A DNA stretch of 64,000 nt from Octopus vulgaris. Taxonomy: Eukaryota. The notes under the pieces were generated by a model. The model saw only the letters and a program-made list of their open reading frames with translations, had not been told where the DNA came from and did not search any database. The DNA lies in NCBI GenBank assembly GCA_951406725.2, contig OX597823.1, forward strand, positions 39,060,001-39,124,000, written 5' to 3'. The position numbers and the translations under genes were made by a program. Of this stretch, positions 2,641-18,209 are shown piece after piece; position 1 is the stretch's first letter, and each line of letters opens with the position of its first letter.

Positions 2641-3311
2641 ATGTACTAAAATCTAAATTTGTTTTTCTTTATTTTCATGTTTAAAGAATTTAAAATTAAA
2701 AAAGACGAACATTTTTTATGCTTTATGAAATAAGTTTTTCATGTGTGTTTAGATGTGAGAAGTCATATTGAACTTGTACCAACACTTCAGATTCTGCTGA
2801 GGTTACTTTTAGTGTGTGTAAATTATTTCTGGATTGTGGAAACTGTGTGGAAGCCTTTTGAATGTTGGGCTCTGTTGACCTAGTTTTAAAGATATCCTGA
2901 TGTGTTGCTTTCTACCATATCGAATTACCTTTCTGCCTCTACTGCCACTACTTTTCAAGACCCTGCAAAGAGATCTCAGGCATTACTCTTACCTCTAGTC
3001 ATAAAATATTGTACTCTAGTTTAGTTCTGTTTTGAGGGCTTTATTACATTTTTCTCATCAAAAGGAAAAACTGCAATATTTTTTGTATTTAGTACAATCT
3101 TTCATTAGAATTTGTTTATTCTAGCTCCTCTACTATACATTATTTTTCAATTATTCACAAATGATTAATCATAATACTGCCCAGTGAACTACTCTAGTTC
3201 TATATTATATTCTTTATTTTATGTCTGCCAATGTTATAGTTTGTATGATATGCCATATTTCTTCTGTGTTTTCATAGAAATACTAATTTTCATAACCTTT
3301 TCTGTTTCCAG

Positions 3312-3410
3312 GATTTCGCACTTGGGATGTGGAAGCCGCTGGAGTAGACATAAACGAGGAAGTCTCTCAGATTGCCAACAAAGGTGCTTTGGGTGAAGAA
3401 GGTCCTTATG
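3312..3410 (+). CDS. futsch: MAP1/futsch internal coding exon (99 bp, phase 1/1): (G)FRTWDVEAAGVDINEEVSQIANKGALGEEGPY(G)
   Basis: Acceptor tttccag at 3311 and donor gttagt at 3411. It splices in frame to the exon at 13297 (G|GT GAA AGA). The peptide resembles the MAP1/futsch N-terminal 'G..sWD....d..eE......GEE...GER...Y' segment. It is not shown in this frame in the ORF track. Confidence 0.88.
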
Positions 3411-4335: not shown

Positions 4336-6429
4336 TTGAGGTATGATGGCTATGAGGTGAAGTTACTAGGTGATTGACCAAGTATAAATTTGAATCTTGG
4401 CTGTTATTTTGGACCATTTTGAGCAAGGTACCTAACTCTGTCTACTACAGATTCACTTGATTGAATGGTAGAACTTGCTCCATTTCTATTTCTGAATAAT
4501 TGTCAGTGGAATGAGCATCTTGCTGTAAAACATGAAGCAAAATGAATGTGATAAAATTCCCCCTTTTTTCTATTCTTCGTTTCTTTCTCTAAGACTATTT
4601 GTACAAATATCCAGATTTTCAAACTCTTTAACTCTGATACATTTAAAAAAAAAAAATACTTAAAATGTAAAAGAAATTACATAGCAGATAGTCAGAACCA
4701 TAACACACTAAGTAATTGAAATGTGTTGTTGGTGCCATTCTAATAGATTTACTAATAATTTATCCATCTTTTAGGCATAGAGATTCCAATGGAGACAATT
4801 TAGCTCAGAGGATTATCTTAATATAATGGAATCAATTTAAATTTTCCAGATTTTTGACTATCTTCATAAAACTACTCAGTTTAATGTTAAAATGCTTTGC
4901 AGAGAATTACCTAAATATAATGAAACTTACTTGGAGTTTAACAATTTTTGAGCATCTTTATAAACTACCCAGTTTAATACTAAAATGCTTATCTAAACCC
5001 TTATTGACATGTAAACTCTTGCTGACATGGTACCTTTCTCAAGATTGGTTGCTATTTTCAAAATGTAATCCAACTATGCTCTAAGAAAAACAAGTAGAAT
5101 ATTTTTTTTGTTTTCCTTCCTTAACAGTCAACTCTTTTGGACCCCCCAATGCAGGTAAGCTTAGTCAGATACTTACTGTATTTTGCATGCTGCCAGTAGG
5201 TCTTAATTCATCTTTTCACCCCTCTGTTAAATGTGTCACTTTTCTCTCCCATATTCCATAGTTGATTTAGATCTGTCTTTGACTCTTTCTCTTCCCACCA
5301 ATACCTGTCAGCATTGCAAGACATCAGAAACAAGCTGATACTTGCATACTGACATACAAACAAACACAAGGCTGTTGAAATTTACTTTTAATTTTGGTTC
5401 ATTCCTCCTTTGGATTTAAGACATAAAGTCTTAGACTTTATCATTGGTTACTTGAAATCATTGATACTTCTCAGTGACAGTGTCTTTTTATTCTGGCAGC
5501 AAAATAAAACTTCTCAATCTGCAAAACCTATTAGCTAAAGAAGCACTAAAGTGGATTAATATTATAACCAGACATGTGATTTAAGTGACTAGAAAGACCC
5601 AGTTTTTACTAATGATACATTGCTGCTAATAATAATTCTTTCTACTATAAGCACCAGAGCCTGAAAGGGGTGGGGAAGTCAATTACATCAACTTCAGTGC
5701 TCAACTGGTACTTATTTTATCAACTCCAAAAGAATGAACGGTAAAGTTGACATCAGCAGTATTTGAACTCAGTGTGTAAAGCCAAAAGAAATACTGCTAA
5801 GCATTTTGTCCAGTGTACTTACAATTCTGCCAGCTCACCACCCTAACAGGGATTAGAAATTTGAATTTCAAATTAAGGGATTATAAGAGAAAAGTTGCGT
5901 AGAATTCATTTTTTTTTTTAATTACAAAGTTCTTAAAATTTCTAGTAGGTGGTAATCATATGGCATTATTTCATTCTTTTTCAAAATTATCAGCATGACA
6001 TGACTTGTGGCTTATTATTCATTTAATGAAATGAGGCATTTCATTAAAGAGGGGAAATAATTACAATCTGGAGAAAATTCATCCAATGATCCTTCTTCAC
6101 CCCCATCTCCCTTCATAGTGTTAGTAGTTTAGGAATCTGGGGAAAATTTTCAGAAACATATTTAACATGCATAATCACATAGTAACTAAACACATGAAGT
6201 GATATGACTAATGACTGGATAGCTGAGGACTTGCTAGAATTTAGCTAAGTTCAGTTACCTCCAAGACATTAATACTAAAAGAGAAAGTGTGCTGCTGCTA
6301 TACAATCTAAGAACATTGATTCTGCTTCCAGCAAGGTGGAGTATTAAGCCACCATAATGTCTTGTTATATGACTAGAAAAACCAAAATATATCTTGGTGT
6401 ATTACTCATCCTCATTTCAAACCTTTCTC

Positions 6430-12920: not shown

Positions 12921-13296
12921 TAAGTCATTTTCACAAATAGGTTATTGTCTCATTGTTGATGGTAACTTCAGTGCTAAGCATTTTAGTATTTGTGTGGAAG
13001 GGAGTAGCTTTTTGGTTTCCTGTTTGAAAGTGGGATTTTCTTGAAGAGGTTTTTACTTAGCTTCTGTTTTAATATTTGAATGAAAATGATGTCTCAACAT
13101 CTTATTTTGAAGCAGTAACTATTTTATTTGAACTAAACATTTCATTGAGAACAAACTGGGGTTGAGTGGAAGGTGTAAGTCATCTTTTGTATTTTGTCAA
13201 ATTTATGATCTTAATATATTGTTTTTAAGTTTTTGCTGATTTAATTTGTAAGTTGCTTTTGTTCTGTCTTACCTGTACTGCATTTGTTTTTTGCAG

Positions 13297-16200
13297 GTGA
13301 AAGAGTGCTGCGTTATAGTTCTACCACTTTGTCTGTGGAAGCATTGATAGCACCTCAATCAACTACTGTGAAAAGGTCTTTGAAAAACTTCCTTGGAGCC
13401 CCTGTTAAGTACCATCACTTAATATATGCAGGTCATGTCTTGCATGGCTCTGGAGAATGGATCTTGCAAGATGCCCCGTTTTCCTTTAGCAGTTTTGCTG
13501 CAACATTGAAAGATCCTGATGTTGAGAATGCTTTAAAACAACAAGAGGAAGGTATATTAAATATTCATTGTTTTGCAACTGGAGAATGGAACAATGCAAA
13601 CCTCTCAAAGGTTGGAAGCAAAGTTCTTCAAATTAATTTGAACCCCGAGGATAAACTTTCTGATTTGACTGGTGTTTTGCAATTTAGCACCTACCTGTGC
13701 AATTATGTGAAATGTAGGTCTCTAAAAGAAATGCTTCGATCTTCTGATGTTGTTGGTAATATCAGATTCAGCAAACCAACCCTGTACGTGTTCCCTGGTT
13801 GCCAAGGAGACTCTGCCTTGTTTGGAATCAGTGGTTTCAATCTATTAGTAAATGGTGGCTACAACAAAAAGGCTTGTTTCTGGGATTTCACTCGTCATCT
13901 TGACCGCATTGATGCACTCTTGCTCACACACTTGGGTATTGATAACCTTTTTGGTATTAATTCAGTCTTACATCGCAAGAGCATTGAAAATGTGCACCCA
14001 GAGATAGGCCATGTTTACTTCAATGCCCCAAAGGGTAACCGGAACTCACAAGATGAATCAGAATTGGACGGAAAACCATCAGCAGATAGTTTACTGATAA
14101 ATCTTTCTAATGAAGGAGATAAAATTACTGACTATGTGCGACAATTAAGACAAGTTGTTAACTCTTGTTCTCGACCTGCAACTTCTCCACAGATTGATCC
14201 AGTGAATCTTTATCATAAAGTTGGCCATGGATCTCTGGATATGTACATCATGAATCCTGTCCAAGACAGCAAAGAATTAAAGGAATTTTATCAGCAATGG
14301 AGTAAACAATCAATTCAGGTGAATGGGTCTCAATGTCCACTCCCAAACATGTTGTCCATATGTGCACTTTTAATCTGGCGACCAGCTGACCCATTAGAAA
14401 AAATTACTCGTATATTTTTCCCTGGGAATGCTCCTCAACACAAAATCATTGAAGGTCTTGAGAAAATGAAGACCCTAAATGTGTTGAAGTTTCCAAAGTG
14501 CTGTGATAAAGATCTGAATGCCCCAAAAACTGCAGTAAAAAAATCTGCACCATTGAAAGCTACTAGGACTACTTCAAAACCATTGGCTAGCAAGAGCGAA
14601 CCAATTAAACGTGAAGCTAAGGTTGAAGTGAAATCAAGGACATCACTTAGCAAAACTACCAACAAGGGATTGAAAGATGACACTAATAAAAAAACTAGCA
14701 AAGCAAAAGAAAAGGGTGATAAACCAAAATCAAGCAATAGTGTCTCACCTAAAATATCGCCTCCCACTGAAGTGGCTCCTTCAGCTCAATCTCCTTTGGA
14801 TGGTGTTCCTGCTATTTCTGAACCAGCTGCAGTGGTTAAAGAATCTCCTCCTGATCTAGTCCAGAAAGATTCTAATCTACTTGTAGATTTTGGCAGTACA
14901 CCTGCAGAAGCTCCTGCTTCCAGCCCTGCCTCAGATCCTTTACTTGATCTGATTGGCCATCCTTCAATGAAAGCTGAATCTGAACAATCAATGAATGCAA
15001 CTTCACCTTGTCTCATGAACAACCAATCACCTGAGCCTTTGCCAGACCCAACTCATGTGGAGAGAGATGCTACAGCTGAGCCTGAAGATGACCAACTTGG
15101 CAGTAGATTAAACATGAAACAAATGGAGGATATGGGTATTTATGATGACCTGATGGGTCATGCTCAGCGTTCTGATGATGCAATTGAAGCTGACAAGATT
15201 GTATCGTCTGGTTCTGAAGACAAAGGGTTTGATGAAATGGAAGAAGTTCAGCCAGAGTCACTACCAGAACCTGATTTGGTCCTTGAGAGCCAGCCTATTC
15301 AATATGATGATTCAAGGCATGGGTTTTCTGGAAACGAGTCAAGGGACATAACTGCAGACCTTCTTCCAAAACCTAAAACTTTACCTGAAAGTGAGATTAC
15401 TCCAGAAACAGCTGCTCCAGTTGAAATGAGTCCTGAGAGAGAACTTTCTCCTCCACTGCCCATGGATTCTTGTATGTCAACATCTATGTATGGTAGTTTG
15501 ATGGAGCCAGCCTTGCCATCACAGGCTGAGGTTTTGCAGAATCTCCAAGATGATATTTCAGAAGAAAAAACAAAAGATGACTCAATCTCAGAAGATTGTT
15601 CTGAGATTAAAGAGAACCAATTAATGCCGGAATGTGAAGAACTGTTGTCTGAGAAACCGCAAGATCTCTTTCCATCTGATCAGCCTAGTTGTGAGGCCAG
15701 CTCTCCAGCTTCTGGGAGATTCTCTCCTGAACACCAGAAGCATGATGCTGGACTAGAATCTCAAGATTATGAAAGTCAAGATGCTGAAGTTGAAGGTCAG
15801 CGTGCTGGTACTGAGTCTCCCTCGTTTGAAGGTCAGCGCTCAGGTACTGAGTCTCCCTCGTTTGAAGGTCAGCGCGCTGGTACTGAGTCTCCCTCGTTTG
15901 AAGGTCAGCGCGCTGGTACTGAGTCTCCCTCGTTTGAAGGTCAGCGCGCTGGTACTGAGTCTCCCTCGTTTGAAGGTCAGCGCGCTGGTACTGAGTCTCC
16001 CTCGTTTGAAGGTCAGCGCGACGGTACTGAGTCTCCCTCGTTTGAAGGTCAGCGCGACGGTACTGAGTCTCCCTCATTTGAAGGTCAACGTGACGGTACT
16101 GAGTCTCCCTCATTTGAAGGTCAGCATGCTGATTCCAAATCTCCCTCATATGAAGGTCAGCGCTCAGGTACTGAGTCTCCTTCGTTTGAAGGTCAGTGCA

Positions 16201-18209
16201 CAGCTACTGAATCTTCAACATTTGAAAATCAGCGTAGAGGCACAGAGTCCCCAGAGTACCAGAGGGAGCACTCTGACACAGAATCTCCAGAGTATGAAAG
16301 AGAGCACTCTGGCACAGAATCTCCAGAATATGAAAGGCAACATGCTAGTGCTGAGTCGCCAGTGTATGAGGATGAGCATGCCAGAAGTGAGTCCCCAGAA
16401 AGAGAACATGCAAGTGAGGAAGCCTTAGGTCACAGGGAACAGCATGACATGGCGGACAGTCCAGAAGAACAAGAAAGTACATCTGATGACCATTTGTCAG
16501 ATCGAATCAGTCCAGAGAGTAATCACGAAGAGATGCATCGTGAGACTGAGGAACTTGATGAACGTTACAGTCCTGAGGGTTATGAGGCTGAACAAGACTT
16601 TGGTGCTGCCTCACAAATGGAATTTCATGAAAAAGATGAAGACAAGGAGAACCATGGTCCGAAAGGTAGTATGCATCAGTCTGATAGTGGTACAGCCCTT
16701 GACCAGTGTGATGAAGCAGACAAGCAAATACATGAAGACCAAATTGATGATGAGGAAGATGAAGATTCTTCTGAAGTGGCTTCCCAACCTGAAACTAATG
16801 AAATGGCAATGGACTGGGATGAAAAAGAAAGAAGTCCTGAAGGCCAACACTTTGAAGAGCAACAAGATCATGTTGCAGCAGCAGTAGAACACATGACTGG
16901 TGCTAAAGATGATGCATCTTCAATACCAGCAGCTTTTGAAAAGGATGAGACTCCTCAACATGAGGGTGAAGCCAAAACAATGGAACAACCTGTGGATGTA
17001 CATCAATCTCACAGTGGTGAGTTCTCTAGTGAAGATGGGTTAACTGCTGAAAAAGAATTGGAAGATAGAGATGATACTGACTCTATTGATGGTGGTACAC
17101 CTGATGATGAAAAAGATATTGATGAATCTTGTGGTTCATCTAAACAGTTGTCTGAACAATCAGCTGCCGCATTTGGCTTGAATACCAGCAACTTGTCACC
17201 ACTGGCACCACCATTTTCTCCAAGTAATCAATCTTTTGATCCTTTTGGTCAACAAGGGAATGTTTCTTATATGGGAGGACAAGCTGCTAATTTTGAAGGC
17301 TTTAATGCTGATGCTAAACCATTTGAACCTGCTGATGAATGGGGGAAACCCATGAATCTCCCTAGCCCTCCACCACCTGAATCGAAAAAGCCAAATGGCG
17401 TAACTGCTGCAAGGAGCTCAACAACATCAACAATGAAATCTAGAACAACTCACTCAAAATTAGATTCGAAGACCACTGACAAAAAGTTAGCTGACAACAA
17501 AAAGACCGAGACTAAGAAACCAACAACTTTAGGAAAATCTAAACCTTTAACAGAACGAAAGACTGCAGCAAGCAGCAAGCCTGAGAAGAGGTTGGCCAAT
17601 GGGGATGCAGATCTGAAGAGTAAACCAAAGACTTCGGCTACTAGCTTGGATAAAAGATCATCTTCAGCAACTGCTGAGAGGAAACCTTTGACAAAATCAC
17701 GTCCTTTATCTTCCACAGCAGTTAAAGATATCAAGACTACAACCAGTGTTTCAAAAACGGAATCAAAGACCAAACTGTCAACAACCAAACGTCCGACTTC
17801 TACCACTAGTGGGAGCCGTACTTCTCCAGCCTCCAAACCTGCTCCTCCTTTACCCCCTCACACTACATTCTATGTAGACTTGACATATATTCCTAACCAT
17901 GGTGATCCAACATCAAGTGATATTGAATTCTTCAAGAGGATTCGAGCCCGTTACTATGTGCTAAGTGCCCTCTCGCCAAACCCTCAAATATTAAATGCTC
18001 TTCTGGAAGCCAAACAAACCTGGGAAGACAAAGAGCTGGAAGTTACAGTTATTCCAACATACGATAATGAAACATTAAGACATTGGATGGGTTTACATCG
18101 CGACCAATTGACTGATCTGAAGATTGATGTGGCCCCTTCTGCCAGCCGTTGCACAATCCAGTTACAGGATCACGAAACAAGTTGCTCAGCTTATAGACTA
18201 GAGTTCTAG
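13297..18209 (+). CDS. futsch: Microtubule-associated protein 1 family (futsch/MAP1B-like), giant terminal coding exon
   Basis: The exon lies within the 1641-aa ORF, with acceptor ttttttgcag at 13296. It has the N-terminal MAP1 block (KPTLYVFPGCQGDSALFGISGFNLLVNGG...CFWDFTRHLDRID, LYHKVGHGSLDMY, RIFFPGNAPQ), a Lys-rich basic region, an acidic middle, a WGKPMNLPSP motif and the light-chain C-terminus (YVDLTYIPNHG...EFFKRIRARYYVLS...VTVIPTYD...CSAYRLEF*). Confidence 0.95.
15791..16400 (+). repeat. Coding 36-bp minisatellite (12-aa EGQRxGTESPSF), about 17 units
   Basis: Nine near-identical units (15791-16114) are followed by about 8 degenerate units grading to xxEHxxTESPEY. Confidence 0.95.

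What the first reader, a model, noticed from the sequence alone, without database searches (positions are those of the whole stretch)
17187..17333. Two PAM2-like (PABP-binding) motifs in the MAP1/futsch protein
Seen: SNLSPLAPPFSP (17187-17222) and EGFNADAKPFEP (17295-17330) sit in a disordered region just before the conserved WGKPMNLPSP motif and the basic light-chain region. Established: the PAM2 consensus xx(L/F)xxxAxxFxP binds the MLLE domain of cytoplasmic poly(A)-binding protein (ataxin-2, Paip1/2, Tob, eRF3), and tandem copies occur in several of these. Both peptides have the hydrophobic-3, A7, F10, P12 spacing. I do not know of PAM2 in vertebrate MAP1A/B. Inference: this MAP1 may directly tether PABP-coated mRNPs to neuronal microtubules, a candidate device for axonal local translation.
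Basis: partly seen in the sequence, partly recalled or inferred. Interest (0 to 1): 0.72.

Follow-up and report, generated by a model that had tools for sequence, protein, structure and literature searches.

The report
Cephalopod MAP1 with PABP-docking motif
The octopus microtubule-binding protein MAP1/futsch carries a short peptide, kept in all seven octopus- and cuttlefish-group sequences examined but missing from most other animals, that matches the motif proteins use to dock on poly(A)-binding protein, so it likely gives this cytoskeletal protein a weak, untested handle on mRNA particles; the second peptide reported is a poorer match.

Summary
Both peptides are real, in frame, and lie in the large last exon of the Octopus MAP1/futsch gene (identical to O. 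vulgaris CAI9728991). They are not equal. Motif 1 (SNLSPLAPPFSP) meets the published PAM2 definition at every defining position (21 of 20,000 shuffles match), is predicted disordered, and is present in 7 of 7 coleoid entries, though below the Pfam cut-off. Motif 2 fails position 5, occurs only in the 5 octopod entries, and its F-x-P belongs to the family-wide FDPxxxWGxPxxLP anchor. Other molluscs lack the motif: there this segment is an NPF cluster (67 of 86 proteins; 0 of 6 coleoids). PAM2-like motifs recur at the same site in Priapulus (three copies) and, as looser matches, in one annelid and one gastropod. Best reading: a lineage-variable docking segment of MAP1 that in coleoids likely binds an MLLE domain (PABP, or UBR5 or the octopus poly-MLLE proteins). 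Binding, cleavage site and any role in axonal translation are untested. I found no report of PAM2 in MAP1; a fly MAP (Map205) with PAM2 is a recalled, unverified precedent.

The parts
13297..18209 (+). Large last coding exon of MAP1/futsch (splice acceptor AG at 13295-13296, stop 18207-18209)
   Evidence: ORF; sequence; contigs of 4 of 4 runs leave the window sequence at 13296 and continue with the upstream exon; upstream exons at 3302-3409 and 5127-5159
13297..13700 (+). MAP1B N-terminal domain, part in this exon (PF23415)
   Evidence: E 4.3e-29, residues 17-152 of P0001
13719..14519 (+). MBL-like domain (PF25281)
   Evidence: E 5.3e-87; coordinates
14520..14759 (+). First basic stretch (23 K+R in 80 aa), likely heavy-chain microtubule-binding region
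   Evidence: composition; function inferred from the MAP1 family (recalled)
15810..16330 (+). Acidic 12-residue repeats (TESP-containing, 13 copies), approximate ends
17067..17123 (+). Conserved DSIDGGTPDDEKDID block, unexplained
   Evidence: 18 of 19 positions invariant in 6 coleoid rows; DS[IVL]DG in 36 of 92 spiralian proteins
17187..17222 (+). Motif 1, PAM2-type (L3 S4 P5 A7 F10 P12); best MLLE-ligand candidate
17238..17246 (+). Single DPF tripeptide, where other spiralians have an NPF cluster
17295..17330 (+). Motif 2, imperfect PAM2-like (Ala at position 5), octopod-only, overlapping the anchor
17322..17375 (+). Family-wide anchor F[DNE]P-x-WGxPxxLPxP, predicted ordered island
   Evidence: F[DNE]P precedes the W in 87 of 92 spiralian proteins; pLDDT 72-73 against 43-56 just upstream; 65 and 52 against 32-38 in P0066
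17376..17849 (+). Second basic stretch, likely light-chain microtubule-binding region
   Evidence: 38 K+R against 13 D+E; function inferred
17850..18206 (+). Conserved folded C-terminal MAP1 domain
   Evidence: 113 of 119 positions invariant in 6 coleoid rows; pLDDT mostly 70-97

Best explanation
[quoted passage not shown] Shown: sequence, frame, splicing, match to the PAM2 definition, conservation pattern, intact MLLE contact residues in octopus PABP. Predicted: motif 1 is free and disordered, while the anchor that supplies F10 and P12 of motif 2 is ordered. Inferred: Leu3, Ala7 and Phe10 of motif 1 enter the MLLE pockets as in eRF3 and Paip2, at modest affinity (Ser4 and Pro9 are not the preferred residues); motif 2 is a later, weaker, octopod-only second site at best; the segment is a variable docking hub where most spiralians show NPF motifs and a few lineages show PAM2. 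The link to axonal local translation is the least supported step.
For: Motif 1 fits Kozlov and Gehring's definition at positions 3, 4, 5, 7, 10 and 12, chance 21 of 20,000. It scores 18.0 on a matrix built from the 7 PAM2 hits of this genome, inside their leave-one-out range of 14.4-32.4. It is present in 7 of 7 coleoid entries, 10 of 12 positions invariant against 4 of 21 and 8 of 24 in the flanks; the two positions that vary, 8 and 11, are ones the paper calls exposed or unconserved. Priapulus MAP1B-like P0186 has three strict matches just before the same anchor; 0 of 20,000 shuffles reach three. Outside coleoids a widened pattern hits 6 times in 26,474 pre-anchor residues and 0 times in 361,991 other residues (shuffle mean 0.26-0.52, maximum 4 in 300). 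The octopus PABP MLLE keeps all 17 contact residues named in the paper. Motif 1 has pLDDT about 46-49.
Against: Pfam PAM2 15.3 bits, below the cut-off of 20; no Pfam match for motif 2; the own-genome PAM2 search did not return this locus among its 7 matches. 68 of 1094 12-mers of the disordered region are as conserved as motif 1, so conservation alone does not single it out, and positions 1, 2, 6 and 9, which PAM2 leaves fairly free, are invariant too. 224 of 225 non-coleoid proteins have no strict match. The widened pattern (Asp at 4) was chosen after seeing P0025 and P0085; one of its 6 hits (P0247) is in the cluster of P0025 and three are in one protein; P0186 was retrieved with a query that contained the motifs. 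Glu9 is preferred and both motifs have Pro9. A real PAM2 can be dispensable, as in Upa1. No tissue or localisation data.
Confidence: 0.5

Rival explanations
1. The motif is a true MLLE ligand but its partner is not PABP on mRNA: it recruits the ubiquitin ligase UBR5/HYD, or the octopus poly-MLLE proteins, and so controls MAP1 turnover or scaffolding rather than translation.
For: MLLE also occurs in UBR5. The genome has 59 MLLE matches, among them an intron-split one on C3 whose sequence context looks like UBR5 to me (inferred), a second PABP on C10, and 54 matches in an array on C5.
Against: PABP is usually the abundant cytoplasmic MLLE protein (recalled); the C5 array is covered only patchily by contigs in 3 of 4 runs; the motif also occurs in decapods and Priapulus, where the array was not examined.
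Confidence: 0.15
2. The peptides are remodelled NPF/DPF-type aromatic-proline motifs that bind something else (endocytic EH or adaptor domains, or MAP1's own folded core), and the PAM2 likeness is incidental.
For: The same segment holds 111 NPF in 11,224 residues against 2 in 53,340 elsewhere in the disordered region; NPF binds EH domains. Both octopus motifs and three of the five outside matches have Pro-Phe at 9-10, unlike 7 of 7 genome PAM2 hits. Motif 2's FEP is the family anchor, predicted ordered.
Against: Coleoids have no NPF at all (0 of 6); shuffles that keep NPF, DPF and FDP words intact do not produce the observed matches (mean 0.52, maximum 4 against 6); motif 1 keeps L3, S4, P5 and A7, which an NPF-type ligand would not need.
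Confidence: 0.2
3. Chance match in a slowly evolving Pro/Phe-rich patch, with no function.
For: Sub-threshold Pfam score; about 6% of 12-mers in the region are equally conserved; a 0.1% per-protein rate over a whole proteome would yield some such matches (inference).
Against: Flanks have diverged while the motif has not; recurrence at the same site in Priapulus.
Confidence: 0.15

Closest known systems
MAP1/Futsch family (MAP1A, MAP1B, MAP1S, Drosophila Futsch, C. elegans MAPH-1)
   Same: PF23415 and PF25281 domains, long acidic disordered middle, basic stretch and conserved C-terminal domain.
   Different: Carries a PAM2-type motif that 224 of 225 non-coleoid homologues lack. No protein named as vertebrate was among those examined, so absence in MAP1A/B is not tested here.
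PAM2 ligands of the PABPC1 MLLE domain (eRF3, Paip2, ataxin-2, Tob; PMC2854688)
   Same: Motif 1 has L3, S4, P5, A7, F10, P12 in a disordered segment.
   Different: Ser4 and Pro9 rather than Asn4 and Glu9; below the Pfam cut-off; the host is a structural MAP, not a translation factor; binding unmeasured.
Ustilago Upa1/Upa2 (PAM2 proteins linking mRNPs to endosomes; PMC4466420)
   Same: PAM2-type motif in a protein that ties mRNPs to a transport scaffold on microtubules.
   Different: Endosome-borne rather than a lattice-binding MAP; the Upa1 PAM2 is dispensable.
Drosophila Map205 / grasshopper Blackjack (recalled, not verified)
   Same: As I recall, an insect microtubule-associated protein listed with a PAM2 motif and tested for MLLE binding as a peptide.
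   Different: Not a MAP1-family protein, as I recall. The papers were not held and searches did not confirm the claim.

Membership tests
MAP1/Futsch | N-terminal MAP1B_N plus MBL-like domains | tested here: met
   101.5 and 291.8 bits, above the cut-offs
MAP1/Futsch | Conserved C-terminal domain after a basic stretch | tested here: met
MAP1/Futsch | Cleavage into heavy and light chain, and its site relative to the motifs | not testable with these tools
PAM2 (motif 1) | Hydrophobic 3, N/S 4, P/V/T 5, A7, F10, P12 | tested here: met
PAM2 (motif 1) | Pfam PF07145 curated cut-off (20 bits) | tested here: not met
   15.3 bits, E 0.016 on a 27-residue piece
PAM2 (motif 1) | Lies outside folded domains | tested here: met
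   pLDDT about 46-49, no secondary structure
PAM2 (motif 1) | Conserved above its flanks in orthologues | tested here: inconclusive
   yes in coleoids (10 of 12 against 4 of 21 and 8 of 24), but 68 of 1094 12-mers do as well, and it is absent in other molluscs
PAM2 (motif 1) | Binds MLLE, F10-dependent | not tested
PAM2 (motif 2) | P/V/T at position 5 | tested here: not met
   Ala; the Pro-to-Ala change lowered Paip2 affinity 5-fold
PAM2 (motif 2) | Hydrophobic 3, N4, A7, F10, P12 | tested here: met
   matrix score 11.0, below the leave-one-out range
PAM2 (motif 2) | Free, disordered Phe10 | tested here: inconclusive
   F10 and P12 begin an island of pLDDT 72-73; contacts are not reported
MLLE partner (octopus PABP, G000:C23) | Peptide-contact residues of human PABPC1 MLLE | tested here: met
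   17 of 17 named residues identical by offset from KITGMLLE
EH-domain ligands (NPF) | Asn-Pro-Phe tripeptide | tested here: not met
   0 NPF in 6 coleoid proteins

The most novel reading that the evidence does not exclude
The pre-anchor segment of invertebrate MAP1 is a swappable cargo-docking hub: NPF motifs tie microtubules to endocytic EH proteins in most spiralians, and coleoid cephalopods (and, separately, priapulids) exchanged them for PAM2, making MAP1 a direct, static anchor of PABP-mRNPs on neuronal microtubules and a molecular handle on axonal protein synthesis in cephalopods.
Probability: 0.25. Interest if true: 0.75.

Novelty: new variant of a known kind. Interest (0 to 1): 0.48.

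Why it matters
If motif 1 binds PABP, a structural MAP1 would link mRNPs to microtubules directly, without motors or endosomes, in animals whose giant axons are a classic system for local protein synthesis (recalled). The test is cheap: one peptide and one 85-residue domain. The NPF cluster in other spiralian MAP1s is a second lead, for which one search found no report. The ceiling is limited: PAM2 motifs turn up in many proteins, can be dispensable, and the motif is lineage-restricted.

Tried and rejected
Complex prediction of MLLE with motif 1 was not available: no verdict. The ESM Atlas gave no usable hit for residues 1300-1380. The PDB sequence search with the motif region found nothing and with the C-terminal part only one unrelated weak hit. 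The search for shorter homologues returned 1 protein, not a cephalopod-type sequence; the search with the Priapulus region returned 42 proteins, 4 of them new, and no further strict carrier. No RNA holder is listed on record for the stretch; run X14 does not cover the motifs; no changed letters appear over the motifs in 3 covering runs, but contigs drop rare variants, so RNA recoding is not excluded. Rejected: two equivalent tandem PAM2s; a pan-molluscan motif; the anchor FDPxAEWGxP as a PAM2w variant (Trp one position early, Ala not constant). Literature searches: PAM2+futsch 8 papers, PAM2 motif/MAP1B/MLLE 100 (20 listed, none with MAP1B), PAM2+octopus 1, Map205+PAM2 0, Map205+PABP 1, PAM2/Blackjack/PABC 111 (15 listed, none with Blackjack), futsch+NPF+Eps15 3, and two broader ones; judged from listings, none reports a PAM2 in MAP1/futsch. 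Subscription papers are not covered. The scan's earlier notes held nothing on this locus.

Full report
Observation. The stretch lies in the longest ORF of the window, 13245-18209 on the + strand. The two peptides translate exactly as reported. The protein has the Pfam MAPB1_N and MBL_MAP1B domains and is identical at 1636 of 1636 residues to O. vulgaris futsch P0234, with 9 differences from O. sinensis P0002. Contigs of 4 of 4 laid runs (RNA by guess) leave the genomic sequence at the acceptor at 13296 and continue with the upstream exon, whose peptide maps to window 3302-3409; in 3 of the 4 runs one contig spans both motifs without changed letters there. The motifs are therefore coding and on a spliced transcript; tissue is unknown.

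Anatomy. N-terminal folded domains, a basic stretch, a long acidic region with 12-residue repeats, a conserved DSIDGGTPDDEKDID block, motif 1, one DPF, motif 2 overlapping the anchor FEPADEWGKPMNLPSP, a second basic stretch, and the folded C-terminal domain. In a model of residues 1270-1654, motif 1 has pLDDT about 46-49 with no structure, the anchor 72-73, and the C-terminal domain mostly 70-97. In a natural 1010-residue homologue the anchor is again an island (65 and 52 against 32-38 around it). These are moderate values and contacts are not reported, so docking of the anchor on MAP1's own core is inferred. Where the heavy/light cut falls is not known here.

Are they PAM2? Kozlov and Gehring (PMC2854688; parts 1-2 of 4 of the text read) define position 3 as Leu (sometimes Pro or Phe), 4 as Asn or less often Ser, 5 as Pro, Val or Thr, 7 Ala, 10 Phe, 12 usually Pro, with Glu preferred at 9. 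Motif 1 meets all defining positions; 21 of 20,000 shuffles of the protein do. Motif 2 has Ala at 5, a change that cost Paip2 5-fold. Pfam scores motif 1 at 15.3 bits, under the cut-off of 20, and does not match motif 2. A matrix from the 7 PF07145 hits in this genome scores motif 1 at 18.0 and motif 2 at 11.0; leave-one-out scores of the training motifs are 14.4-32.4. The intronless PABP on G000:C23 keeps all 17 MLLE contact residues named in the paper.

Conservation. Among 232 proteins (best-listed hits only), a strict ELM-like pattern (recalled) hits motif 1 in 7 of 7 coleoid entries (the window, O. sinensis, O. bimaculoides, Argonauta, Sepia pharaonis and two unnamed entries that group with them) and motif 2 in the 5 octopod entries only. 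Motif 1 is invariant at 10 of 12 positions in 6 rows, against 4 of 21 and 8 of 24 in its flanks; but 68 of 1094 12-mers in the disordered region reach 10 or more. The F-x-P of motif 2 is the family's F[DNE]P before the anchor Trp (87 of 92 spiralian proteins), so half of that match comes free. Of 225 non-coleoid proteins only one has strict hits: Priapulus caudatus MAP1B-like P0186, with three, 109, 75 and 50 residues before its anchor; 0 of 20,000 shuffles give three. The second Priapulus MAP1 (P0222) has none. With Asp allowed at position 4 (chosen after seeing them) an annelid-clade protein (P0025, and P0247 of its cluster) and a caenogastropod-clade protein (P0085) join: 6 hits in 26,474 pre-anchor residues, 0 in 361,991 elsewhere, shuffle means 0.26 and 0.52. 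That tree used 100 rows, about half with the C-terminal part only, and was used only to place these two proteins. No protein named as vertebrate was examined.

What other animals have there. In spiralians the segment is an NPF hotspot: 111 NPF in 11,224 residues against 2 in 53,340; 67 of 86 non-coleoid spiralian proteins have at least one, 0 of 6 coleoids and 0 of 26 mostly arthropod proteins. NPF is the EH-domain ligand (PMC4569317, passages). The segment thus looks like a motif hub whose content differs by lineage. NPF is often preceded by Leu, Phe or Tyr (30 of 112), which supplies positions 3-5 of a PAM2 and offers a short path from one motif to the other (inference).

Mechanism. Most likely motif 1 is a modest-affinity MLLE ligand. 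With MAP1 on microtubules through its basic stretches (family knowledge, recalled), this would put PABP, and perhaps its mRNA, near the lattice; motif 2 may add a weak second site in octopods. I put MLLE binding by motif 1 at about 0.65, PABP as the relevant partner at about 0.5 overall, and a real role in axonal mRNA anchoring at about 0.25. Rivals are another MLLE partner (59 MLLE matches in this genome, 54 in one array), an NPF-derived ligand for something else, and chance. A cautionary case: the PAM2 of Ustilago Upa1 is dispensable (PMC4466420, outline and section 8).

Known versus new. The gene is an ordinary annotated futsch. I recall Map205/Blackjack as a PAM2-bearing insect MAP, which would make the general idea precedented; I could not verify it. 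No supplements were consulted.

Verdict. Observation confirmed; interpretation partly supported. One good, coleoid-restricted PAM2 candidate and one weak one, in a variable docking segment with a parallel in Priapulus. New variant of a known kind; interest 0.48.

Noticed in passing
G000:C5:130386180-130419010 (L101-L104), minus strand: Five long frames of tandem MLLE domains without RRMs (54 Pfam matches at a 273-base period), resembling the C-terminal end of the C23 PABP; patchy contig cover in 3 of 4 runs and a join to outside sequence at L104:7098 in two runs. Already noted by the scan (e1-8666990).
   Followed up: partly
P0186 (Priapulus caudatus XP_014678495) residues 1244-1315: Three PAM2-type motifs just before the MAP1 anchor; one scores 25.4 on the octopus matrix, better than either octopus motif.
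   Followed up: partly
P0008-P0092, the 130-200 residues before the anchor: Cluster of NPF motifs in bivalve, gastropod, annelid and nemertean MAP1; a possible MAP1 link to EH-domain proteins.
   Followed up: partly
window 17067-17123: DSIDGGTPDDEKDID block, 18 of 19 invariant in coleoids, with DS[IVL]DG in 36 of 92 spiralian MAP1s; DxxD-G resembles a caspase site (recalled). 33 of 92 carry RDS[LIM]E[RK].
   Followed up: no
window 17322-17375: Anchor F[DNE]P..WGxPxxLPxP, found in 205 of 231 homologues and duplicated in several gastropods and insects; function not identified here.
   Followed up: partly
window 15810-16330: About 13 copies of an acidic 12-residue Ser/Thr-Pro repeat in the MAP1 middle region.
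   Followed up: no
G000:C10:102744835-102746817 (L016), G000:C2 (L019), G000:C21 (L018): A second intronless PABP and two divergent MLLE-like frames in the same genome.
   Followed up: no
model mb43e1546f4ba (P0066): The best PDB fold match of a mollusc-type MAP1 is chain 4b of the mouse sperm central apparatus (9ijj, 30% identity, E 7e-11), possibly a MAP1-family chain.
   Followed up: no
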